A stretch of 23,689 bases of DNA from a virus. Taxonomy: Duplodnaviria > Heunggongvirae > Uroviricota > Caudoviricetes. The position numbers and the translations under genes were made by a program. The stretch lies in the IMG/VR virus record IMGVR_UViG_2698536618_000024, positions 1 through 23,689 of that record; one strand, given 5' to 3'. Numbering within the stretch: the stretch's first letter is position 1; every line of letters starts with the position of its first letter. The notes below the pieces were generated by a model. The model ran no database searches and had not been told where the DNA came from. It was given only the letters and a program-made list of their open reading frames with translations. Shown one piece after another: positions 810 through 22,468 of this stretch.

Positions 810-1458
810 TGGCAGCAAATACCGAAATATTTGGGTAGTTGGCGATCTGCACGGATGCTACACGAACCTGATGAAAAAACTGGAGACGATAGGATTCGAC
901 ACCAAAAAAGACCTGCTTATCTCGGTTGGCGATTTGGTCGATCGCGGTACAGAGAACGTCGAATGCCTGGAATTAATCACATTCCCCTGGTTCAGAGCTG
1001 TACGTGGAAACCATGAGCAAATGATGATTGATGGCTTATCAGAGCGCGGAAACGTCAATCACTGGATGCTTAATGGCGGTGGCTGGTTCTTTAATCTCGA
1101 TTACGACAAAGAAATTCTGGCTAAAGCTCTTGCCCATAAAGCAGATGAACTTCCGTTAATCATCGAACTGGTGAGCAAAGATAAAAAATATGTCATCTGC
1201 CACGCCGATTATCCTTGTGACGAATACGAGTTTGGAAAGCCAGTTGATCATCAGCAGGTAATCTGGAACCGAGAACGAATCAGCAACTCACAAGACGGGA
1301 TCGTGAAAGAAATTAAAGGCGCGGACACGTTCATCTTTGGTCATACGCCAGCAGTGAAACCGCTCAAATTTGCCAACCAGATGTATATCGATACCGGCGC
1401 AGTGTTCTGCGGAAAGCTCACATTGATTCAGGTACAGGGAGAAGGCGCGTGGGCATAA
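787..1458 (+). CDS. ninI: PPP-family Ser/Thr protein phosphatase (lambda PPase-like)
   Basis: Metallophosphatase motifs GDLHG, GDLVDRG and GNHE visible in translation; start placed at [23 protein letters not shown] (ATG 787), not the ORF-track start at 712, because the upstream extension overlaps ninH and is not phosphatase-like. Confidence 0.9.
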
Positions 1459-1967
1459 GAGAACTAAACCTCACCAAAGAACAGCATGAGTGGCTGAATG
1501 GCTGGCTTGAACTGTGGGGCGCATGGGTTTATTCAGGTCGTCTGGAAAAGCGCATGAGCAGCGTAATAGCGAAGTTCATGGAGAGCGTAGAGCCGGGAAG
1601 AGTTATGACAAGACCAATGTGCAATGATGATGATGGAATGTTGATTTCTCAGGTCGTCGATTCCGTCATGTACATTGACAAGAAAGCCTTTGGCATCCTC
1701 CTCAGCTACTACGCTCATGGTTCATCTAAGCGAGCAATTGCATCCTACTATCACGCGACTGCAAAGCCACGCAAGATGTGTGGACGTGGTGGCGAGGGAT
1801 GGAGAAAACCTTCACTGGCAACCTGTAGAAACGAAATTGACGACATCCTGAAAGCGTCGTTATTTGTTTTGTACCAGCCAATGCAAAATGCTTTCAAAAT
1901 GCGTAAACGTGTTGAGAAAGTTAAGCATGTTGCTGTTAAAAGTCTTGACATGCAATTAGCCATTTAG
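1449..1967 (+). CDS. Late-gene antitermination protein Q (non-lambda, QuuD/phage-82-like type)
   Basis: Position immediately after nin genes and before lysis genes; N-terminal [12 protein letters not shown]...[12 protein letters not shown] resembles the recalled E. coli DLP12 QuuD pattern (ERWGAWAANN...RPQCCDDDAMII); GTG start overlaps phosphatase stop. Confidence 0.75.
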
Positions 1968-1974
1968 CCATAAT
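1945..1974 (+). promoter_or_regulatory. Candidate late promoter PR' with overlapping repeated TTAGCCA motif (possible Q-binding/qut element)
   Basis: TTGACA at 1945-1950, 18-nt spacer, CATAAT at 1969-1974; ATTAGCCA/TTAGCCA/ATTAGCA copies at 1955-1962, 1964-1970, 1973-1979, between and over the -35/-10 elements. Confidence 0.4.
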
Positions 1975-1984
1975 TAGCAGGTAA

Positions 1985-2026
1985 GCTGCCGTTAGTGACT
2001 CTTAAGTTGCAACGGTGGCTTTTTTT
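1985..2026 (+). terminator. Intrinsic terminator-like hairpin (tR'-like) downstream of Q
   Basis: GCTGCCGTT (1985-1993) pairs with AACGGTGGC (2011-2019), 9 bp including two G-U pairs, 17-nt loop, then a 7-T run 2020-2026. Confidence 0.4.
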
Positions 2027-2030
2027 ATTT

Positions 2031-2105
2031 GGGTCAGTCGTATAAAGGTCATTACGGAAGGCTGTTAACCTTCTTATCGTGGTTCGAGTCCACGCTGTCC
2101 CGCCA
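2031..2105 (+). tRNA. tRNA-Asn(GUU)-like gene, possibly degenerate
   Basis: Hand-folded cloverleaf: anticodon stem GAAGG/CCTTC, loop CTGTTAA (anticodon GTT), T-arm CGTGG-TTCGAGT-CCACG, discriminator G plus encoded CCA; acceptor stem has one U-U mismatch (4:69) and D-stem only 3 bp. Confidence 0.5.
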
Positions 2106-2110
2106 AATAT

Positions 2111-2186
2111 GCTGGTTTAGCTCCAATGGTAGAGCGGTCGCCTTGTAAGCGAATGGGTAGCGGTTCAAGTCCGTTAACCAGCACCA
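2111..2186 (+). tRNA. tRNA-Thr(UGU)-like gene
   Basis: Hand-folded cloverleaf: perfect 7-bp acceptor GCTGGTT/AACCAGC, D-arm GCTC-CAATGGTA-GAGC, anticodon loop CTTGTAA (anticodon TGT), T-arm AGCGG-TTCAAGT-CCGTT, discriminator A, encoded CCA; acceptor ends resemble recalled E. coli tRNA-Thr. Confidence 0.6.
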
Positions 2187-2408
2187 TAACTGAGCCGTAG
2201 CCACTGGCTATCCTGAATTCATCAGTGATAGTTATGCTGCGGCCTTCTACACATGACCTTCGTGAAAGCGGGTGGCAAGAGGCTGCGCTAACAACCTCAT
2301 GCCGTTTTGCCCGTGCATATCGGTCACGAACAAATCTGATTACTAAACACAGTAGCCTGGATTTGTTCTATCAGTAATCGACCTTATTCCTAATTAAATA
2401 GAGCAAAT

Positions 2409-2430: not shown

Positions 2431-2634
2431 ATGTACCGTATGGACAAAATCAGAGAATGGTTCAGTTATAGTTTCGGAGGACTGACTGCGATGGGTGGCA
2501 TTCTCTCCCTGAATGACTGGGCTGTCATCATTGGTATTCTTTGTACTGTCGGCACATTTGGCATCAACTGGTACTACAAGCGCAAAGAGCGCGAGGACAG
2601 ATTGAATGGCAATGTCACCGGTACTACGAAATAG
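2431..2634 (+). CDS. Holin, pinholin-like, with dual start motif (Met1/Met4)
   Basis: 67 aa with two hydrophobic segments and charged C-terminus; N-terminus MYRMDKI resembles the recalled phage 21 S dual start (MKSMDKI); directly precedes a SAR endolysin. Confidence 0.7.
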
Positions 2635-3109: not shown

Positions 3110-3573
3110 ACAGAGTAACCGCGATTATCTCCGCTCTGGTTATCTGCATCGTCGTCTGCCTGTCATGGGGTGTTAATCATTACCGTGATAACGCCATCGC
3201 CTACAAAGAACAGCGCGACAAAAATGCCAGAGAACTGAAGCTGGCGAACGCGGCAATTACTGAGATGCAGATGCGTCAGCGTGATGTTGCTGCGCTCGAT
3301 GCAAAATACACGAAGGAGTTAGCTGATGCGAAAGCTGAAAATGATGCTCTTCGGCGCAAGCTTGATAATGGTGGCAGGGTGCTCGTCAAAGGAAAATGCC
3401 CTGTGCCATCCTCAGACGAAACCTCCAGCGCCTCCGGCATGGGCAATGATGCCACCGTCGAACTCTCTCCAGTTGCTGGACGAAACGTTCTCGGTATCCG
3501 GGACGGAATTATCCGCGACCAAACAGCACTAAGAACGCTTCAGGAATACATCAGGACGCAATGCCTTCGATGA
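3106..3573 (+). CDS. Rz: Rz i-spanin
   Basis: N-terminal TM segment ([18 protein letters not shown]), coiled-coil-like body, strong resemblance to recalled lambda Rz; ATG 3106 overlaps endolysin stop (ATGA). Confidence 0.85.
3326..3532 (+). CDS. Rz1: Rz1 o-spanin lipoprotein, embedded in the +1 frame of Rz
   Basis: Lipobox LIMVAGC then Pro-rich PPAPPAW; resembles recalled lambda Rz1; fully nested within Rz. Confidence 0.8.
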
Positions 3574-3747
3574 TAGCGATAATTTTACTCATCATCCTTC
3601 ACATCTGGCTCTGTAGGCAGGGTGGTGAACACTTCTGGAGTGAATCCGGATTAAATATCTCATTGCTGATGCTTGATATTGAGCATCTGGCGCGCGGTAA
3701 GGGGCTGTGTTGAGATAAGAGCCAGTCATTACAAACACCAGGATTTA

Positions 3748-3770
3748 GCCTCGCATTCGCGGGGCTTTTT
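3748..3770 (+). terminator. Intrinsic terminator-like hairpin in the post-lysis spacer
   Basis: GCCTCGC (3748-3754) pairs with GCGGGGC (3759-3765) with one G-U, loop ATTC, then TTTTT 3766-3770. Confidence 0.4.
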
Positions 3771-4043
3771 ACATCTGCAGTAAACCGCGCATCGCAGCGC
3801 GTAACAATCCCGAGTCTTTCAGAAAGCTGAGCCTGAGAACTGCCGTATATGGTGGCGACCATCTCGGGGCGGCTTTTCTGTGCGAAACCGGAATTTATTC
3901 TTGGCAACCAGTTACGGCAGTACCACGAAACAACCCAAGCCAGTAAGTGGGGAAATAACACTGGCAGCCACTGAAAGATGAACCTCCTGCCTTATGGCAA
4001 AAAAGATTCTTTGTGGTGGCGGACTGATGGAAAGACATCGGTT

Positions 4044-4078
4044 ATTGCAGAGACCATTCAATGAGTGGTCTCTGCAAT
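4044..4078. repeat. 13-bp perfect inverted repeat with 9-bp spacer
   Basis: ATTGCAGAGACCA (4044-4056) / TGGTCTCTGCAAT (4066-4078), read directly; ~65 bp upstream of the ORF starting at 4142. Confidence 0.7.
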
Positions 4079-4141
4079 GGCTTATACCCTGCACGGGATA
4101 ACTTAACTGATATCCCTTTTAACGGATAAGCGGAGCCAACA

Positions 4142-4384
4142 ATGGCAGAGATTATTCCCATGACTGAAGAACAGAAATTCCAGTTAGAGATTTACAAGCT
4201 GGTCATGAACCAGAACGCAGCCGCAGAGGAAGCATTTCAGTTCATTGGCACTGACGAACTGAAGCTTGAGCTATTCAAAATTCACTTCCAGTCAGGTGGT
4301 GCTAATTCGGATATCACGATCCGCACATTCGAAGCGGTGCGTAAATCGAAGGAAGCGTTAGACCTGTTTACTACCGGAGCATGA
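4142..4384 (+). CDS. Hypothetical small acidic protein (80 aa) upstream of terminase
   Basis: Clean ORF with GGAG-type RBS context, protein-like helical composition; same position and size as the small orf80 that I recall preceding gene 3 in P22; no function recognised. Confidence 0.55.
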   Translation: MAEIIPMTEEQKFQLEIYKLVMNQNAAAEEAFQFIGTDELKLELFKIHFQSGGANSDITIRTFEAVRKSKEALDLFTTGA

Positions 4385-5011: not shown

Positions 5012-6423
5012 CCTCGATTAATCCTATCTTTGAACCGTTCATTGAGGCGCATCGCTACAAAGTCGCCAAAGGCGGTCGAGGTAGCGGTAAATCATGGGCA
5101 ATTGCGAGACTGCTTGTTGAGGCGGCACGTCGGCAGCCTGTGCGTATTCTTTGCGCTCGTGAACTGCAAAACAGTATCAGCGATTCGGTAATCCGGTTGC
5201 TTGAAGATACCATCGAGCGTGAAGGGTATTCGGCTGAGTTTGAAATTCAGCGTTCTATGATTCGTCATCTCGGAACGAATGCTGAGTTCATGTTCTACGG
5301 CATCAAAAACAACCCGACGAAGATTAAATCGCTAGAAGGTATTGATATCTGCTGGGTGGAGGAAGCGGAAGCGGTAACGAAGGAATCATGGGATATCCTG
5401 ATACCAACCATCCGCAAGCCGTTTTCCGAAATATGGGTGAGCTTTAACCCTAAGAACATCCTCGACGATACCTATCAGCGATTCGTTGTAAATCCTCCCG
5501 ATGATATTTGCCTGCTGACGGTGAACTACACTGACAACCCGCATTTTCCTGAAGTTCTCCGTCTGGAGATGGAAGAGTGTAAACGCAGAAATCCGACACT
5601 GTATCGTCACATCTGGCTTGGTGAGCCAGTAAGCGCAAGTGATATGGCAATCATCAAACGTGAATGGCTTGAAGCCGCAACCGATGCGCACAAGAAACTC
5701 GGATGGAAAGCGAAAGGTGCTGTTGTCTCTGCGCATGACCCATCAGATACAGGGCCAGATGCTAAAGGTTATGCATCGCGTCACGGTTCGGTAGTTAAGC
5801 GCATTGCCGAAGGTCTGCTGATGGACATCAACGAGGGTGCTGACTGGGCTACTTCGCTGGCGATTGAAGACGGCTCTGACCACTACCTGTGGGATGGTGA
5901 TGGTGTTGGTGCCGGGCTACGCAGACAGACAACGGAAGCGTTCTCCGGCAAGAAAATCACCGCCACGATGTTCAAGGGCAGCGAATCGCCATTCGATGAA
6001 GATGCGCCATATCAGGCCGGAGCATGGGCTGATGAAGTCGTACAGGGCGACAATGTTCGCACTATTGGCGATGTATTCCGCAATAAGCGAGCGCAATTCT
6101 ATTACGCGCTGGCTGACAGGCTGTATCTGACATATCGGGCGGTTGTCCACGGTGAGTATGCAGACCCCGACGACATGCTGAGCTTCGACAAAGAAGCGAT
6201 AGGCGAGAAGATGCTGGAGAAGCTGTTTGCAGAACTGACGCAGATTCAGCGCAAATTCAATAACAACGGGAAGCTGGAGCTTATGACTAAGGTCGAAATG
6301 AAGCAGAAGCTCGGTATTCCATCTCCTAACCTGGCTGATGCGCTGATGATGTGTATGCATTGCCCGGAGTCGGCTGCGCAACCCGACTATTCCAGTTACT
6401 CAATTCCTTGTGGTGTAGGTTGA
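5008..6423 (+). CDS. Terminase large subunit (ATPase/nuclease)
   Basis: Walker A-like KGGRGSGKS near N-terminus, 471 aa, directly upstream of portal. Confidence 0.9.
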   Translation: MTSINPIFEPFIEAHRYKVAKGGRGSGKSWAIARLLVEAARRQPVRILCARELQNSISDSVIRLLEDTIEREGYSAEFEIQRSMIRHLGTNAEFMFYGIKNNPTKIKSLEGIDICWVEEAEAVTKESWDILIPTIRKPFSEIWVSFNPKNILDDTYQRFVVNPPDDICLLTVNYTDNPHFPEVLRLEMEECKRRNPTLYRHIWLGEPVSASDMAIIKREWLEAATDAHKKLGWKAKGAVVSAHDPSDTGPDAKGYASRHGSVVKRIAEGLLMDINEGADWATSLAIEDGSDHYLWDGDGVGAGLRRQTTEAFSGKKITATMFKGSESPFDEDAPYQAGAWADEVVQGDNVRTIGDVFRNKRAQFYYALADRLYLTYRAVVHGEYADPDDMLSFDKEAIGEKMLEKLFAELTQIQRKFNNNGKLELMTKVEMKQKLGIPSPNLADALMMCMHCPESAAQPDYSSYSIPCGVG

Positions 6424-9625: not shown

Positions 9626-10879
9626 ATGGCTAACCAATTAGCAAAAGACCTTGAAATCATGTTCGAAAACTACGTTGAAGGCTTTGAGGCCGCCTGCGTA
9701 GTTTCCCGTAACGCTAAAAAATTCCGTCCCGGTGATACAGCAATGCAGCGAGCAGGTGATGTTCTGTATCGTCCGCAGCATTACCACATGAACATTGAGG
9801 AAGGCCTAGACCTCAGCGGCAAAACGCCAACAGCACTGGTTCAGCGCCTTGTTCCTTCTGTGTTCAAGGAACCGAAAAACATTCTGTACACTCTGGATGC
9901 GCGTGAAATGCGTGACCCGGAACATAAAACTGAAGCTGGTCGAGCCGCAGGTATGCGCCTTGCTGCACAGATTGACTCTGACCTGATTTCCATGGTCACG
10001 CAGCGTGCTACTAACGTGGTCGCAATTCCTGCCTCAGAAAATGGCTCACGGGGCCTTGCCTTGTGGAATGGTGCGGCAGATATTGATGCCACCATGACGG
10101 CGATTGGTGTACCTCAGGGTATCAACCGTCGCTCTTTCTGGAACCCCTTCAACTACAAAGACCTTGCTGGCGAGCTTGGTCACCGTGCCTATGCTCAGGG
10201 CGCAACCCTGACAGCATACGAAAAAGCGCAGATCCCTCCGGTTGCGTCCTTTGATAGCTACAAGACCGATATTTCTGGTCGATTACCGAAAGGAAGCACT
10301 GAATCCTTGACAGTATCAGGCCAACCTGAACACAAGGTTGAAGCGAAAGATTCAAATGGTATGCCAGTTGATAACCGACAGGGGACTATTACGGTATCTG
10401 CATCTGGCTTGCAGGTTGGTGATGCGTTCACCATTGCCGGTGTGAATTCCGTACACCAGATCACAAAAGATACCACCGGTCAACCGCAGGTATTCCGTGT
10501 TCTGGCTGTTAGCGGAACTACCGTAACAATTTCTCCAAAGATTCTCCCTGTTGAAAATACTGATGTTGCGAGTCGTCCATATGCAAACGTCGATGCCAAA
10601 CCGGCAGAATCAGCAGCAATCACCATTCTCAACAAGAACGCAGCACCGGCTAACCTATTCTGGGCTGATGGTTCTGTTGAACTGATGTACGGCAAACTGG
10701 CATTCCCGACTGGTCAGGGGCCACAGGTAATGACAGCAACCACCGAGCAGGGCGCTACGCTGATCATGTCTTACGCCTTCGACCACATCAAAGGCGTAAC
10801 CACTGCACGTTTCACCACTCTGTACGGTTGCTCTGTACTGGTTCCTGAATATACGGGCATCGTTATTGCCGGGCAGTAA
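9626..10879 (+). CDS. Major capsid (coat) protein, P22-like/Sf6-type
   Basis: 417 aa following scaffold, GGAG RBS, followed by a strong terminator; size and position match P22 gp5; no close sequence match to P22 gp5 was recognised, the Sf6-type label is from context. Confidence 0.85.
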   Translation: MANQLAKDLEIMFENYVEGFEAACVVSRNAKKFRPGDTAMQRAGDVLYRPQHYHMNIEEGLDLSGKTPTALVQRLVPSVFKEPKNILYTLDAREMRDPEHKTEAGRAAGMRLAAQIDSDLISMVTQRATNVVAIPASENGSRGLALWNGAADIDATMTAIGVPQGINRRSFWNPFNYKDLAGELGHRAYAQGATLTAYEKAQIPPVASFDSYKTDISGRLPKGSTESLTVSGQPEHKVEAKDSNGMPVDNRQGTITVSASGLQVGDAFTIAGVNSVHQITKDTTGQPQVFRVLAVSGTTVTISPKILPVENTDVASRPYANVDAKPAESAAITILNKNAAPANLFWADGSVELMYGKLAFPTGQGPQVMTATTEQGATLIMSYAFDHIKGVTTARFTTLYGCSVLVPEYTGIVIAGQ

Positions 10880-18265: not shown

Positions 18266-18655
18266 CTAACATTTTCTTTTTACTTTCCCAACAAAAGCTT
18301 TGGTTGAATCCATATTTCCATAACCGGAAATGGTTTTTGACATTAAAACTGTTCCAGTAGGATGTATTACCCATGAGTCGATAACGCGTTGAGTTTCGCC
18401 ATTCGCGCCGATTCCTATGATGGAGTTTTTAGACAATGCTTTGTAAGCCATGCCGCCCGCATCTGTCCCAGAATATGTGATGCTGGCATCTTCACCGCTT
18501 GTCTTAATGATGAATGTTCCACTAAAACCATCTTCTTCCGGATGGAAATTATTTCGTTCTGAATAGCTTATTCCGCGCATATCTCCAACGACCCAGCACT
18601 CTGCTGTAGCCCCAAAAGATATGAATAAGAACATAGCAGCAAGAAATTGCTTCAC
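18266..18655 (-). CDS. Hypothetical secreted/periplasmic protein (about 129 aa with Sec signal peptide)
   Basis: Start reassigned to GTG at 18655 (minus strand): AAGGAGG lies 5 nt upstream and the product begins MKQFLAAMFLFISFGATA/ECW, a classic n-h-c signal peptide with AXA site; the ORF-track extension to 18871 is antisense to the neighbouring plus gene and not protein-like. Confidence 0.55.
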   Translation of the reverse strand: MKQFLAAMFLFISFGATAECWVVGDMRGISYSERNNFHPEEDGFSGTFIIKTSGEDASITYSGTDAGGMAYKALSKNSIIGIGANGETQRVIDSWVIHPTGTVLMSKTISGYGNMDSTKAFVGKVKRKC

Positions 18656-18685
18656 ACCAACCTCCTTAGTTTTGCGCAGGATACC

Positions 18686-19051
18686 ATGAAAAAAGTTAAC
18701 ATTGGAAACGTACCAAAAATGCTCGTTCCGCTCTTTGAGAGCGGTACAATTGTGTTTTGCAGAGACTTTCCAGAATGGCAACGCCTGCATCAAAAACTTG
18801 GCGTGGACGTGCAGGACTCGGATGCCAACGGAGCGTCTCATACAATGAGCAGCGAGAATGGTGTTTTGCATGTGATAGGTGTGTTCAATGGCAAACTATC
18901 TACTATTGCCCATGAGTGCGCTCACATGGCATTCGATATCTGCTCAAGGGTCGGCGTTGATGTTGAACCAGGAAGAGCCAACGAGACTTACTGCTACTTA
19001 ATGAGCAGGCTTGTTGAGTTCTGCGAGCGACATATCAAAAAGCCGGAGTGA
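18686..19051 (+). CDS. Hypothetical protein with HEXXH zinc-binding-type motif (about 121 aa)
   Basis: Translation contains STIAHECAHMAFD (HEXXH at nt 18910-18924) in a hydrophobic context typical of zincin active-site helices; start at ATG 18686 to avoid overlap with the divergent secreted-protein gene; family not identified. Confidence 0.5.
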   Translation: MKKVNIGNVPKMLVPLFESGTIVFCRDFPEWQRLHQKLGVDVQDSDANGASHTMSSENGVLHVIGVFNGKLSTIAHECAHMAFDICSRVGVDVEPGRANETYCYLMSRLVEFCERHIKKPE

Positions 19052-19491: not shown

Positions 19492-21288
19492 ATGACAGAC
19501 ATTACAGCCAATGTGATCGTATCGATGCCTTCGCAACTTTTCACTATGGCGCGTTCTTTTAAAGCTGTAGCCAATGGCAAAATTTATATCGGTCAGGTTG
19601 ACACTGACCCGGTAAATCCTGAAAACCAGATCCCTGTATATCTGGAACGAGAAGATGGCTCTCATGTTCAGGTGGCGCAGCCAATAGTTATCAACGCTGC
19701 TGGATATCCGGTATATAACGGGCAGATCGCCAAGTTCGCAACTGTACAGAATCACTCCATGGCTGTATATGATGCGTATGGCGCACAACAATTCTATTAT
19801 CCTGATCTACTGAAATATTCTCCAGACCAGTTAAGGGCTGAGCTTTCTGGCCCTGATGGCGCATCTCTGGTTGGTTATGGAGGCACAACCGTAAAGATTG
19901 AGCTGGAGATCTTGAAAGCTACACATGATTCATTAATTGATAAAACAGGATTTAACGCTATTGGCCGCTTTCTCAATCTTTCAGAGCTTCGCTCCTGTGT
20001 TCCAGAGGAGGCAGGGCAGATTGTATACGTAGCATCAGCAGCTAGCACTACACATGCTGAAAACCACCTTGGTGGCGGCTTTTTCGAGTCTGTTGATAAC
20101 ATTCAGGCGTGGGCTGACGATGGTGGAATTGTAATCAAGCCAGAAACTGGAACGATGGTATGGAGACGAATTAATTTTACCACTTACGACATGCAATTTT
20201 GGGGGGTGAAACCTGACGGAGTCACAGATAACGCAACAGCTATAACTCTTGCAACTAACTTTGCCCGCTCAAACAAATGCATTCTAGAGGCTCCTGCTGG
20301 AAACATAAATACATCAAAAACAATCCCAATTTATGACAATATGGGAATTAGAGGACAGGGAAAGGCTGAAGCGACAGTTTTTTATAAAACAACAAATGAC
20401 AAAATAGATCTCACAAAAAATGGAGAAGTAATTCTTCAGGTGGATGCATTATGTGCTTTTATACCAAAGCAATGGGATCTAACAGATAACTCAATGAGTT
20501 CATTTTGTGTTAACGGTAGAGTTGAAAACTGCATGTTTAGAAGGCTTGGCTTAACACAAGAAAACGTAGATTCTTATAGAAATTATTACGGACTGTTTTT
20601 AGGAAAATCAGCAGCACCAGTTATCAGACAGTCAATTTTTGAATGTGCTTATATCGGATGCTTCTCTTATGTGCCGTTCTCTGGCGTAATGGAAATGGTC
20701 GGTTTCCCACAATATCCAGGTAAAGGATATGCTGGAGTTTTATTTGAAGATTTTAGGGATGGTCAAATAAAAGTAATAGGCACTTCTATGGATATGCGCC
20801 TTGTTCAGGTTAACGGTTACCAGTTGTCATTTAGAATGTCAGGAATGCAATATACCACCATGACCAATTGTACTGCTGAAAACTGCACGCCAATGGATGG
20901 GGAGTCAATTTGCTATGCATTTGATTTTGTAAATCCGTATTGCATTGTCATGAATACTTGTGCAACAGAATTTGTTAAGGGTGGGCAACTTCGTGTTAGC
21001 GTTCAGGGAAACCCATCATTCAGACCATCTATTATTGTCAATGGCTTTCTGCCAATTGAACAACAAAGCCCGGTAGTGCAAACACCTATAATAGATATTG
21101 ATAATGGTGGCGTAGTTGAAATGAGTGTCATATTAAATGGTGGAGATTGGGCTATAAATCCATCTGCTGCAAATTTAACCGCACCAAGAGCAAGCGGAAA
21201 TGGGTTGAAAGCAAGGTTAATAGGTGTAAACGGGTCGCCTGTTTCGATCTGGAGCGTGTCTTCTGGCGCAGATGTGAAGGAGTTCTAA
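19492..21288 (+). CDS. Tailspike protein: conserved P22-type N-terminal head-binding domain plus divergent receptor-binding domain
   Basis: First ~115 aa ([11 protein letters not shown]...[58 protein letters not shown]) match the recalled P22 gp9 N-terminal domain; remainder unlike P22 and markedly lower in GC by eye. Confidence 0.9.
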
Positions 21289-21358: not shown

Positions 21359-22468
21359 ATGAATAATAAAGGCAATATAATTCAAAGTCTTACATCGTTG
21401 AGAATGTTTGCAGCCCTTGGTGTTTTCGTTAGTCACCTTGGGTTATTATCTCAATCATCTATTGGCATGTTTAATACTGCGGCAAAGTATTTTTTTAACG
21501 GTTACATAGGTGTAACGTTTTTCTACATTCTTTCAGGTTTCATTATAAACTATAGCTTCACAAATCATATAAAAAAAGAGAGATTTAGCAATAAAGATTT
21601 TATTGTATACAGGATTGCAAGAATATTCCCTGTGCATATAGTGGCGCTTATTTGTTTTATTTTAATATTTATGCATGGTAAGGGTATTGATGGTATTAAT
21701 AATGGAGTGCTTATTTCAAATATATTATTACTACAATCATTTATTCCATTACAGGATTATTACTTTTCCTTTAATTCCGTTTCATGGAGCATCTCATGTG
21801 AGATGTTTTTCTACGTTGCATTTTGCTTATTAACAAGGCTAAAGACAAAGCATTTAACTTGTGTGCTGTTATTTGTGCTTGCGATTAATTTTTATTATTT
21901 AATTAATCCACCATCAGCTATATCACAGCATTGGTTGTTTTATATAAATCCATCATTTAGAATTGGCGATTTCATTATAGGAATGCTGATCTGTAGGGTG
22001 TTTATTAATAGTGATGTAAAAATCAACTATACTGTTTGCAGTATACTTGAGATCGCATCGGTGTTGTCATTGTTTTTGACAATATATGTAGCAACAAACT
22101 ATATCACATATATGAACATAAAATATGATGTTCTATATATCCCTTGCATGGCGTTTATAGTTATTGCATTTGCTTTTAATGGTGGCGTCTTATCTAAGAT
22201 ACTTAAAAATAGATTTATGGTTTTGCTTGGTGAGGCCTCTTTCTCATTTTACATTTTCCATTGGATGATAATACAGGTAATAACTAAGATATTAAACCCT
22301 GACACTGATAATTTGTATGAGATGTTAATGTATATAGCATTTTCTTTATTGGTTTCTATTATTGTATCAATAATCTCATTCAAGGTTATAGAAGTGCCTT
22401 CAAATAAAATAATAAGAGGTTATTGGAGAAAGTTTAGAGGTGATAAATTAACTGCGAAGTGTAGTTAG
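21359..22468 (+). CDS. Integral-membrane acyltransferase family 3 protein; candidate O-antigen acetyltransferase (Oac-like serotype-conversion gene)
   Basis: 369 aa, hydrophobic multi-pass throughout, N-terminal region SLRMFAALGVFVSHLG typical of acyltransferase-3 proteins, strongly AT-rich; sits between tailspike and int, the position I recall for oac in Sf6 and gtrABC in P22. Confidence 0.75.
   Translation: MNNKGNIIQSLTSLRMFAALGVFVSHLGLLSQSSIGMFNTAAKYFFNGYIGVTFFYILSGFIINYSFTNHIKKERFSNKDFIVYRIARIFPVHIVALICFILIFMHGKGIDGINNGVLISNILLLQSFIPLQDYYFSFNSVSWSISCEMFFYVAFCLLTRLKTKHLTCVLLFVLAINFYYLINPPSAISQHWLFYINPSFRIGDFIIGMLICRVFINSDVKINYTVCSILEIASVLSLFLTIYVATNYITYMNIKYDVLYIPCMAFIVIAFAFNGGVLSKILKNRFMVLLGEASFSFYIFHWMIIQVITKILNPDTDNLYEMLMYIAFSLLVSIIVSIISFKVIEVPSNKIIRGYWRKFRGDKLTAKCS

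What the first reader, a model, noticed from the sequence alone, without database searches (positions are those of the whole stretch)
2031..2186. Two phage-borne tRNA-like genes directly after the Q terminator, one with non-canonical features
Hand folding gives a tRNA-Thr(UGU)-like gene with a perfect acceptor stem but C at position 14, and a tRNA-Asn(GUU)-like gene with a U-U mismatch in the acceptor stem and a 3-bp D-stem. Both encode CCA. They sit where Stx phages carry ileZ-argN-argO upstream of stx, so they would be expressed with late genes; the Asn-like one may be a pseudo-tRNA or have a non-canonical role.
Basis: seen in the sequence. Interest (0 to 1): 0.45.

Follow-up and report, generated by a model that had tools for sequence, protein, structure and literature searches.

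The report
Known phage tRNA-Asn/tRNA-Thr late-leader pair
These are two genuine tRNA genes (asparagine and threonine) that many lambda-like and P22-like phages of E. coli, Shigella and Salmonella carry just ahead of their late genes; they are already annotated and published, and the threonine one has recently been shown in a near-identical phage copy to help phages get past a bacterial defence that destroys the host's own tRNA.

Summary
ARAGORN and Rfam both call tRNA-Asn(GUU) at 2031-2105 and tRNA-Thr(UGU) at 2111-2186, right after the tR' terminator and ahead of the holin gene. The pair is not new. The same 168 bases are annotated in phage SfI and described in its 2013 paper. The pair is also annotated in Sf6 ("similar to phage 21"), BTP1 and 369 of 5426 complete E. 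coli genomes. The idea that Asn is a pseudo-tRNA is not supported. Across 124 viral copies, stems keep pairing through changes on both sides while U4·U69 stays, and E. coli glyT has the same D-arm. Late genes use ACA 3.1 times and Asn codons 1.4 times more than an E. coli gene sample. [quoted passage not shown] A 2026 preprint shows that the HK446 tRNA-Thr, 75/76 identical to this one, rescues phages from OLD. Most likely these are late-expressed supply tRNAs that also replace cleaved host tRNAs. That second role is inferred for Asn.

The parts
1449..1967 (+). Q late-gene antiterminator gene (phage 21 type)
   Evidence: Pfam PF06530 Phage_antitermQ, 90.3 bits. The Sf6 homologue is annotated 'similar to phage 21 Q'.
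1945..1974 (+). PR' late promoter (TTGACA, 18-nt spacer, CATAAT)
   Evidence: Promoter scan gives 11 of 12 consensus matches. The same site is annotated as PR' in Sf6.
1983..2030 (+). tR' intrinsic terminator: hairpin 1983-2021 running into a U tract that ends at 2030
   Evidence: RNA fold -20.2 kcal/mol, z -3.6, 0 of 200 shuffles fold as well. Annotated as tR' in Sf6. The simple terminator scan missed it, probably because it has an inner stem and a bulge.
2031..2105 (+). tRNA-Asn(GUU) gene with encoded CCA, G73, G1-C72, conserved U4·U69 and U13·U22
   Evidence: ARAGORN. Rfam RF00005 55.3 bits. 100% identical to the annotated SfI gene. 6 pairs changed on both sides among 17 variants.
2111..2186 (+). 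tRNA-Thr(UGU) gene with encoded CCA, A73, G1-C72, C2-G71, non-A at position 14 and G27·A43
   Evidence: ARAGORN. Rfam 61.2 bits. 75/76 identical to the HK446 tRNA-Thr. 7 pairs changed on both sides among 22 variants.
2431..2634 (+). Holin gene, the first protein-coding gene of the late operon that the tRNAs precede
   Evidence: Pfam PF16080, 75 bits, followed by lysozyme, Rz and terminase.

Best explanation
[quoted passage not shown] They are the long-known tRNA pair that phage 21, Sf6, SfI, BTP1, HK446 and many lambdoid or P22-like prophages carry in the leader of the late operon.

How they are made (inferred from the layout and from general knowledge of tRNA processing): they start one base after the tR' U tract and have no promoter of their own. 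They are therefore made in quantity only when Q lets RNA polymerase from PR' read through tR'. The precursor would then be cut out of the late transcript by the host tRNA-processing enzymes (RNase P and 3' trimming). The CCA is encoded, as I recall it is in all E. coli tRNA genes.

What they do, in two parts that do not exclude each other:
1. Supply. Late genes use ACA about three times, and Asn codons about 1.4 to 2 times, as often as E. coli genes. ACA depends on tRNA-Thr(UGU), which is a single-copy gene in E. coli as I recall.
2. Replacement. [quoted passage not shown] The phage copies differ from the host copies at the mapped recognition and cleavage positions, so they would keep late translation going when the host copies are cut.

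What is shown here: gene calls, conservation, covariation, codon bias and sequence differences.

What is shown by others: the HK446 tRNA-Thr, which differs from this one only at position 26, rescues OLD-sensitive phages when expressed from a plasmid.

What is inferred: that Thr matters at its native late-expression level, and the whole replacement role for Asn.
For: Gene calls: ARAGORN and Rfam.

Already annotated or published:
- Sf6 annotates the pair as 'similar to phage 21'.
- SfI is 100% identical over 168 nt. Its paper describes the tandem Asn(GUU)/Thr(UGU) genes downstream of Q and names Sf6, ST64T, PS3 and p21 as carrying one or both (PMC3636060).
- 369 of 5426 complete E. coli genomes carry it, with tRNA-Thr and tRNA-Asn annotated under nearly all listed matches.

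Selection for tRNA structure across 124 IMG/VR copies plus phage records:
- Asn: 6 pairs changed on both sides, covariation score 0.150 against 0.047 in shuffles (0 of 500 reach it), 90% of cells paired against 36-54% when partners are slid.
- Thr: 7 pairs changed on both sides (0 of 500), 95% of cells paired.

Identity elements read from the sequence: Thr has G1-C72, C2-G71, G35 and U36. Asn has G34, U35, U36 and G73. That these are the ThrRS and AsnRS determinants is my recollection of the E. coli literature.

Codon use: ACA is 17.1 per 1000 in late genes against 5.4 in 42 E. coli genes (3.1-fold, p 6e-14). Asn codons are 52.9 against 37.6 per 1000 (p 2.5e-6), and reach 63-81 per 1000 in the gp26-like, gp7, gp20, gp16 and tailspike genes.

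Defence link:
- AriB targets, the UAAUC|A cleavage site, and the escape changes U39->A, A41->C and U16->C come from PMC12409363.
- The window Thr reads U36-A-A-G39-C40-G41 and the window Asn reads U36-A-A-C39-C40-U41. E. coli thrU reads UAAUCA and asnT reads UAAUCC.
- OLD cleaves E. coli Thr(UGU) after nt 27-29, and the HK446 tRNA-Thr gives 'strong counter-defense' (bioRxiv 10.64898/2026.07.10.737580).
- HK446 carries the same pair in the same place. Its Thr is 75/76 identical to the window's, and positions 27-31 read GUCGC against ACUGA in the host.

Recurrence of the Asn(GUU)-Thr(UGU) pairing in other phage backgrounds: P1, Cyrano, Klebsiella phage Mulock, and JLK-2012, which adds Gly(UCC), another OLD target.
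Against: - There is no tRNA-Lys(UUU) here. Lys is the primary target of the one PARIS system studied, and Thr with or without Asn was not tested without T5 tRNA-Lys. This pair alone is therefore unlikely to defeat that system.
- In the OLD work a single viral Thr did not rescue lambda or relieve OLD toxicity. HK446 also has a protein inhibitor, Oad2, and the authors themselves doubt that the tRNA is its main counter-defence.
- Those rescues used plasmid expression. Here the tRNAs appear only after Q acts, which is later than the defence triggers.
- The absence of U39 is weak evidence, because the 31-39 pair varies among tRNAs. The P1 tRNA-Asn keeps the exact UAAUC|A site.
- AGA, AGG and AUA are more enriched in the late genes than ACA, yet no tRNA for them is carried. 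Codon supply alone does not predict which tRNAs are carried.
- No expression, charging or cleavage data exist for this exact locus.
- The thermodynamic MFE fold of the unmodified Thr sequence is not a cloverleaf.
Confidence: 0.72

Rival explanations
1. Codon supply only. The two tRNAs exist solely to raise decoding capacity for ACA and AAC/AAU in the highly expressed late genes. Any insensitivity to defence nucleases is an accident of sequence divergence.
For: ACA is the third most enriched codon in late genes, 3.1-fold over the E. coli sample, and Asn codons are 1.4- to 2-fold enriched. The SfI paper reports the same ACA bias, 17.3% against 7.1%. Placement at the head of the late operon fits a need during bulk virion synthesis.
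Against: AGG, AGA and AUA are more enriched but have no phage tRNA here. As I recall, E. coli K-12 has four tRNA-Asn genes, so Asn supply is an unlikely bottleneck. A near-identical Thr (75/76) has a measured counter-defence effect while E. coli Thr(UGU) expressed the same way has none, so extra supply alone does not explain that result.
Confidence: 0.2
2. The Asn-like gene is a decaying pseudo-tRNA or a tRNA-like element with a non-decoding role.
For: It has a U4·U69 mismatch in the acceptor stem, U13·U22, and C9. A few rare variants lose the CCA or a base of the acceptor stem.
Against: One sequence makes up 92 of 124 viral copies. Three lineages have swapped pairs 5-68, 6-67, 7-66, 28-42 and 29-41 on both sides while keeping U4·U69. 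U8, A14, G18-G19, the UUCGA T-loop, U33, A37, G73 and CCA are all present. The same D-arm occurs in E. coli glyT. Asn persists where the neighbouring Thr is chimeric or degenerate.
Confidence: 0.04
3. The tRNAs act mainly as RNA-processing punctuation. RNase P and 3' trimming would detach the tR' leader and create a defined 5' end for the late mRNA, and decoding would be secondary.
For: The first tRNA starts one base after the tR' U tract, and this junction (TTTTTTATTT|GGGTC) is the same behind at least two different tR' types.
Against: Lambda and many relatives have the same downstream leader without any tRNA, from my recollection of the lambda sequence. The anticodons GUU and UGU never vary among the family variants collected; for Asn the search pattern fixed the anticodon, for Thr it did not. 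The HK446 Thr works in trans from a plasmid.
Confidence: 0.03
4. The tRNAs compensate for a host tRNA gene disrupted by prophage integration. The OLD preprint floats this idea for HK446.
For: Temperate phages often integrate into tRNA genes. The window ends with an integrase gene.
Against: The genes lie about 20 kb from int, in the late leader behind a terminator, so they would be poorly expressed in a lysogen. The same pair sits in phages with different integrases and attachment sites; SfI, for example, integrates in thrW, a different gene from thrU. The sequences are only 54/76 (Thr) and 48/76 (Asn) identical to the host genes.
Confidence: 0.01

Closest known systems
tRNA-Asn/tRNA-Thr pair of phages 21, Sf6, SfI, BTP1, SPN9CC and HK446 (lambdoid and P22-like late-leader tRNAs)
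   Same: Same two anticodons, same order, same 5-nt spacer and same position between tR' and the holin gene. Identity is 100% to SfI over 168 nt, 98.8% to Sf6 and BTP1, and 75/76 plus 75/75 to HK446.
   Different: Nothing of substance. The window's Thr has G26 where Sf6 and HK446 have A26. The G26 form is also common, at 14 of 109 Thr(UGU) genes called across the loci held.
Nuclease-resistant viral tRNAs: T5 tRNA-Lys/Thr/Asn against PARIS AriB, and T4, Bas32, Bas33 and HK446 tRNA-Thr(UGU) against P2 OLD
   Same: Same isoacceptors as two of the three AriB targets and the lead OLD target. The window tRNAs differ from host tRNAs at position 39 and in the 27-31 strand. All phage Thr(UGU) genes compared (window, HK446, P1, Cyrano, Mulock, T5) share C31-G39 where E. 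coli has A31-U39.
   Different: This is a two-gene set in a temperate phage, expressed late, with no tRNA-Lys, rather than a large early array. Resistance of these exact molecules to cleavage has not been measured; the northern blot in the preprint was on Bas32.
ileZ-argN-argO cluster of Stx phages such as 933W
   Same: Same slot, downstream of Q/PR'/tR' and ahead of the late genes, and the same codon-supply rationale.
   Different: Different isoacceptors (Ile and Arg for AUA, AGA and AGG), and they are followed by stx. The sequences are unrelated.
P1/P7 tRNA-Asn and tRNA-Thr (with tciABC and a tRNA annotated Met, anticodon CAT)
   Same: Adjacent Asn(GUU)-Thr(UGU) genes with a 2-nt spacer. The Thr is 62/76 identical to the window's, with the same C31-G39 and T-arm. 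JLK-2012 joins the lambdoid pair to tciA and tciB as P1 does.
   Different: The P1 Asn is a different sequence (45/76), with a canonical D-arm, a fully paired acceptor stem and a UAAUC|A site. The P1 Thr has a canonical A14 D-loop and a C27-G43 pair.

Membership tests
Bacterial elongator tRNA (Rfam RF00005) | Cloverleaf that scores above the curated threshold of the tRNA covariance model and is called by a dedicated tRNA finder | tested here: met
   55.3 bits (Asn) and 61.2 bits (Thr) against a gathering score of 29. ARAGORN calls both.
Bacterial elongator tRNA (Rfam RF00005) | Stems maintained by compensatory change among homologues | tested here: met
   Asn has 6 pairs and Thr 7 pairs changed on both sides. 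Covariation scores are exceeded by 0 of 500 shuffles and collapse when partners are slid.
Bacterial elongator tRNA (Rfam RF00005) | Conserved tertiary nucleotides: U8, A14, G18-G19, U33, purine 37, T-loop UUCRA | tested here: inconclusive
   Asn has all of them. Thr has all except A14. The base after the D-stem is C here and U or G in other copies, never A, and is followed by AA. Either A14 is truly replaced, or the variable base is an extra nucleotide and the next A serves as A14. Sequence alone cannot decide.
Bacterial elongator tRNA (Rfam RF00005) | Aminoacylation by the cognate synthetase, and use in translation | not testable with these tools
   The identity elements I recall for E. coli ThrRS (G1-C72, C2-G71, G35, U36) and AsnRS (G34, U35, U36, G73) are all present in the sequence. 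Functional rescue by the HK446 Thr implies that it decodes.
Lambdoid/P22-like late-leader Asn-Thr tRNA module (phage 21, Sf6, SfI) | Located between the Q-dependent terminator tR' and the lysis cassette, on the late strand | tested here: met
   Q 1449-1967, PR' 1945-1974, tR' 1983-2030, tRNAs 2031-2186, holin from 2431. The layout matches that annotated in Sf6.
Lambdoid/P22-like late-leader Asn-Thr tRNA module (phage 21, Sf6, SfI) | Sequence homology to the described genes | tested here: met
   100% identity to SfI, and 98-99% to Sf6, BTP1, Kapi1 and SPN9CC.
Defence-evading viral tRNA (anti-PARIS / anti-OLD) | Same anticodon as a host tRNA that a defence tRNase cleaves | tested here: met
   Thr(UGU) is cleaved by AriB and OLD, and Asn(GUU) by AriB (PMC12409363; bioRxiv 10.64898/2026.07.10.737580).
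Defence-evading viral tRNA (anti-PARIS / anti-OLD) | Substitutions at the mapped recognition or cleavage positions relative to the host tRNA | tested here: met
   Both lack U39 (Thr has G39, Asn has C39) and differ at position 41. Neither has U16. Thr differs at all of positions 27-31. This is weak evidence, because these positions also vary among tRNAs for unrelated reasons.
Defence-evading viral tRNA (anti-PARIS / anti-OLD) | Measured resistance to cleavage, and rescue of infection | not testable with these tools
   Rescue is reported for the HK446 Thr (75/76 identical) expressed from a plasmid. There are no data for the Asn, for native expression, or for cleavage of these molecules.
Pseudo-tRNA / tRNA-derived relic | Loss of conserved positions and stem pairing without compensation; erratic conservation | tested here: not met
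   True relics do exist next door in relatives: the ST64T second tRNA and the JLK-2012 chimeric Thr are not called by ARAGORN. That shows what decay looks like in this slot.

The most novel reading that the evidence does not exclude
The pair is a compact anti-tRNase cassette. Both tRNAs, not only Thr, would be nuclease-insensitive replacements for host tRNAs that rival mobile elements destroy. For Asn, the features would be C39 in place of the U39 of the AriB motif, G1-C72 in place of the weak U1-A72 pair that CdiA-CT(EC869) needs, and perhaps the strictly conserved U4·U69 mismatch. Placing the cassette at the head of the late operon in about 7% of E. coli genomes would then be an adaptation to PARIS- and OLD-type immunity carried by P4 and P2. 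Under this reading the conserved oddities (U4·U69; the variable base before A14 and G27·A43 in Thr) are escape marks rather than tolerated defects.
Probability: 0.3. Interest if true: 0.5.

Novelty: already known. Interest (0 to 1): 0.22.

Why it matters
As a discovery it matters little. The genes are annotated in hundreds of records and were described in print for SfI in 2013. That paper cites earlier reports of one or both genes in phage 21, Sf6, ST64T and PS3.

Three smaller points have some value:
[quoted passage not shown] - The HK446 tRNA-Thr used in the 2026 OLD study belongs to this widespread module. It is accompanied in HK446 by an unannotated tRNA-Asn that the study does not mention.
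- The SfI paper's negative result on Asn codon bias appears to have tested the wrong codon (CAA). AAC and AAU are in fact enriched in the late genes here.

Tried and rejected
- Pseudo-tRNA reading of Asn: rejected on conservation, covariation and the glyT-like D-arm.
- Integration-compensation reading: rejected on position, on low identity to the host genes and on differing attachment sites.
- Simple terminator scan: did not report tR'. Folding the stretch showed the terminator.
- MFE folding of single sequences: Asn folds close to a cloverleaf, Thr does not. I did not count this against Thr, because it ignores modifications and tertiary contacts, and because the covariance model and covariation both support the cloverleaf.
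- Literature searches with 'tRNA-Asn' and 'tRNA-Thr' mostly returned mitochondrial genome notes. I found no paper that links the lambdoid Asn/Thr pair to PARIS.
- The genome-contig scan for the Asn D-arm and anticodon arm gave only 7 species-level hits, all Enterobacterales or probably mis-binned MAG contigs. It added host range but little new variation.
- An anti-PARIS reading for all phage Asn genes: weakened because the P1 Asn keeps the exact UAAUC|A site.
- Whether Q avoids ACA codons so that it could be made during tRNA-Thr depletion: it has one ACA and five Asn codons, which is low but not zero, so this is not informative.

Full report
**1. What is in the sequence**

ARAGORN finds two tRNA genes in the 23,689-base window: tRNA-Asn(gtt) at 2031-2105 and tRNA-Thr(tgt) at 2111-2186, both on the + strand. 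The Rfam tRNA model matches both over its full length. Asn scores 55.3 bits and Thr 61.2 bits, against a gathering score of 29. The finding's coordinates are therefore exact; the order is Asn first, then Thr.

- The Thr acceptor stem is fully Watson-Crick, and the base after its D-stem is C rather than the usual A14.
- Asn has U4·U69 in the acceptor stem and a D-stem of three pairs plus U13·U22.
- Both genes encode CCA.

**2. Context**

- The upstream ORF (1449-1967) is a Q antiterminator (PF06530).
- A PR'-like promoter lies at 1945-1974, with 11 of 12 consensus matches.
- A strong hairpin at 1983-2021 (-20.2 kcal/mol, z -3.6) runs into a U tract that ends one base before the Asn gene. This is tR'.
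- Downstream come the holin, lysozyme, Rz and terminase genes, then a P22-type tailspike, an oac-like acyltransferase and an integrase.
- The best phage matches to the whole window are phiv205-1, CUS-3 and Kapi1, so it comes from a P22-like prophage.

No promoter separates tR' from the tRNAs. Transcription from PR' therefore reaches them only by read-through of tR'.

**3. The pair is already known**

- The 168 bases around the two genes are 100% identical to phage SfI, where both genes are annotated. They are 98-99% identical to Sf6, BTP1, Kapi1, SPN9CC and others.
- The Sf6 record annotates PR', qut, tR', tRNA-Asn and tRNA-Thr in this order and calls the tRNAs 'similar to phage 21'.
- The SfI paper found the pair with tRNAscan-SE 'downstream of gene Q'. 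[quoted passage not shown]
- Among complete RefSeq E. coli genomes, 369 of 5426 carry the pair, and tRNA-Thr and tRNA-Asn are annotated under nearly all listed matches.
- One genome per species gave hits only in Enterobacterales: Escherichia, E. albertii, Shimwellia, Phytobacter and Mixta. Two further hits are MAG contigs that are probably mis-binned.

**4. Are they functional or decaying?**

I collected 124 copies from IMG/VR using a pattern that fixed only the Asn anticodon arm and T-arm, and re-called tRNAs on every locus held.

*Asn.*
- One sequence accounts for 92 of the 124 copies.
- Among 17 distinct full-length variants, six pairs change on both sides (5-68, 6-67, 7-66, 28-42, 29-41, plus the U4·U69 position itself in two singletons). 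The covariation score is 0.150 against 0.047 in shuffles, reached by 0 of 500. Pairing falls from 90% to 36-54% when partners are slid.
- U4·U69 is kept in three lineages whose neighbouring acceptor pairs were swapped. It is a conserved feature, not damage.
- U13·U22 is invariant. The whole D-arm (C9, G10-C25, U11-A24, A12-U23, U13·U22) is the same design as in the E. coli tRNA-Gly(UCC) gene glyT. The '3-bp D-stem' is therefore within normal host practice.

*Thr.*
- Among 22 variants, including the P1 and Cyrano homologues, seven pairs change on both sides (0 of 500 shuffles) and 95% of cells are paired.
- The base after the D-stem is C in most copies, U in five copies and G in one, never A, and it is always followed by AA. 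Either A14 is truly replaced, or this is an unconstrained extra base and the next A acts as A14. Sequence cannot settle this.
- G27·A43 is fixed in the lambdoid lineage and is C-G in P1 and Cyrano.

*What real decay looks like in this slot.* The second tRNA of ST64T has a ruined anticodon arm. The JLK-2012 and E. albertii 'Thr' is a chimera of the phage 5' half with the E. coli thrU 3' half. ARAGORN calls neither the ST64T gene nor the copies of the chimera whose anticodon stem is broken, as in JLK-2012 and E. albertii; it does call the one copy that keeps an intact thrU 3' half. In those same genomes the Asn is unchanged.

**5. What they are for: supply**

In the late genes (holin to tailspike, 5502 codons) ACA is 17.1 per 1000, or 27% of Thr codons. 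In 42 E. coli K-12 genes it is 5.4 per 1000, or 10% of Thr codons. That is a 3.1-fold difference (p 6e-14) and makes ACA the third most enriched codon. Asn codons are 52.9 against 37.6 per 1000 (p 2.5e-6). In the gp26-like, gp7, gp20, gp16 and tailspike genes Asn reaches 63-81 per 1000 and ACA up to 30 per 1000.

The SfI paper's statement that there was no bias for Asn tested 'CAA', which is not the codon read by anticodon GUU.

Supply is therefore a real part of the explanation. It is not a sufficient one: AGG, AGA and AUA are more enriched and have no phage tRNA here.

**6. What they are for: replacing cleaved host tRNAs**

[quoted passage not shown] All three share the motif U36-A-A-U39. 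U39->A abolishes cleavage of tRNA-Lys, A41->C reduces it, and U16->C impairs it. The T5 versions of the three tRNAs together neutralise PARIS (PMC12409363).

*OLD.* A July 2026 preprint shows that P2 OLD is a tRNase that depletes Thr(UGU), Gly(UCC), fMet, Val(UAC) and Pro(UGG), cutting after nt 27-29. [quoted passage not shown] E. coli Thr(UGU) expressed the same way does not (10.64898/2026.07.10.737580).

*The link to this window.* I fetched HK446. Its RefSeq record annotates no tRNA. ARAGORN nevertheless finds the same Asn-Thr pair between PR'/tR' and the holin gene. The HK446 Asn is identical to the window's, and the HK446 Thr differs only at position 26 (A instead of G). The window's Thr is thus, to within one purine, a molecule with a published counter-defence phenotype.

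*Sequence comparison with the host genes.*

| tRNA | Positions 36-41, window | Positions 36-41, E. coli | Other differences |
|---|---|---|---|
| Thr(UGU) | U-A-A-G-C-G | U-A-A-U-C-A (thrU) | Positions 27-31 read GUCGC against ACUGA in the host |
| Asn(GUU) | U-A-A-C-C-U | U-A-A-U-C-C (asnT) | G1-C72 against U1-A72 in the host |

- All six phage Thr(UGU) genes compared share C31-G39 where the host has A31-U39.
[quoted passage not shown] It needs G73 plus a weak pyrimidine1-purine72 pair, and a G1-C72 variant of tRNA-Gln is a poor substrate (PMC9071432). The phage Asn has G1-C72.

*The pairing recurs elsewhere.* P1 and Cyrano have adjacent Asn-Thr genes. Klebsiella phage Mulock has Asn-Phe-Thr-Arg behind its terminator. 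JLK-2012 has Asn-Thr-Gly(UCC), and Gly(UCC) is another OLD target.

**7. Limits of the defence reading**

- There is no tRNA-Lys here, and Lys is the main AriB target. Thr with or without Asn was not tested without Lys.
- A single viral Thr did not rescue lambda or relieve OLD toxicity. HK446 also has the protein inhibitor Oad2, and the authors themselves hesitate to call its tRNA a counter-defence.
- The rescue experiments used plasmid expression. Here the tRNAs appear only after Q acts.
- Lack of U39 is weak evidence on its own, and the P1 Asn keeps the exact UAAUC|A site.

For Asn the replacement role is therefore an inference. I put it at roughly 0.3.

**8. Verdict**

The feature is already known and annotated, so interest is low. 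The residual value is threefold:
- A concrete, testable explanation for why this particular pair (Asn GUU plus Thr UGU) rides at the head of the late operon.
- HK446 carries an unannotated tRNA-Asn next to the tRNA-Thr that was tested against OLD.
- The Asn codon-bias check in the SfI paper used the wrong codon.

Noticed in passing
L129 (HK446, NC_019714) 10098-10172 and 10178-10253: [quoted passage not shown] The 2026 OLD preprint describes HK446 as encoding a single tRNA-Thr(UGU).
   Followed up: yes
L004 (JLK-2012) 1587-1740; L135 (E. albertii) about 5553-5706: In this module variant the 'Thr' is a chimera: the phage-type 5' half joined to the 3' half of E. coli thrU, often with a broken anticodon stem that ARAGORN does not call. 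It is followed by a tRNA-Gly(UCC) nearly identical to host glyT. This looks like recombination with the host thrU-tyrU-glyT-thrT operon. Gly(UCC) is also an OLD target.
   Followed up: partly
L005 (ST64T) about 1585-1665: The second tRNA position in ST64T holds a degenerate tRNA-like sequence with an altered anticodon arm, not called by ARAGORN. The Asn gene next to it is intact and identical to the window's.
   Followed up: partly
L006 (Klebsiella phage Mulock) 1501-1820; L137 (Mixta) about 5313-5497: The same Asn gene heads larger or different arrays: Asn-Phe-Thr-Arg(UCU) in Mulock, and in Mixta an Asn followed by a Phe-like sequence that ARAGORN does not call. In Phytobacter (L133) it stands alone before a terminator. 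The slot behaves as an expandable tRNA cassette anchored by Asn.
   Followed up: partly
L002 674-748 (E. coli glyT) compared with window 2038-2055: The D-arm of the phage Asn (UCGUAUAAAGGUCAUUAC) closely resembles that of E. coli tRNA-Gly(UCC) (UCGUAUAAUGGCUAUUAC), including C9 and U13·U22.
   Followed up: yes
L007 (P1) 2425-2578 and 3511-4295; L004 (JLK-2012) 1909-2501: In both P1 and the lambdoid phage JLK-2012 the Asn-Thr tRNAs are followed by tciA and tciB. The tRNAs and the tci genes may travel together as a larger unit.
   Followed up: no
window 2270-2308: A lambda-like hairpin (GGCAAGAGG...CCUCAUGCC) followed by GUUUUG lies between the tRNAs and the holin gene. In HK446 the stem is perfect (GGCAGGAGG/CCUCCUGCC). 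The fold is not better than shuffles here (z -0.95), so its status as a second terminator is open.
   Followed up: partly
window 21359-22468 (+) and 19492-21288 (+): An Acyl_transf_3 family protein (oac-like O-antigen acetylase candidate) lies between the P22-type tailspike and the integrase. This suggests a serotype-converting P22-like prophage.
   Followed up: partly
window 18266-18871 (-): A 201-aa ORF on the opposite strand, between the ejection-protein genes and the tailspike, has no Pfam match and a high ACA content (30 per 1000).
   Followed up: no
L131 to L137 (genome-contig hits): Two of the seven species-level hits are MAG contigs assigned to Segatella copri and Collinsella. They carry an enterobacterial phage tRNA pair, which probably reflects binning contamination.
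   Followed up: no
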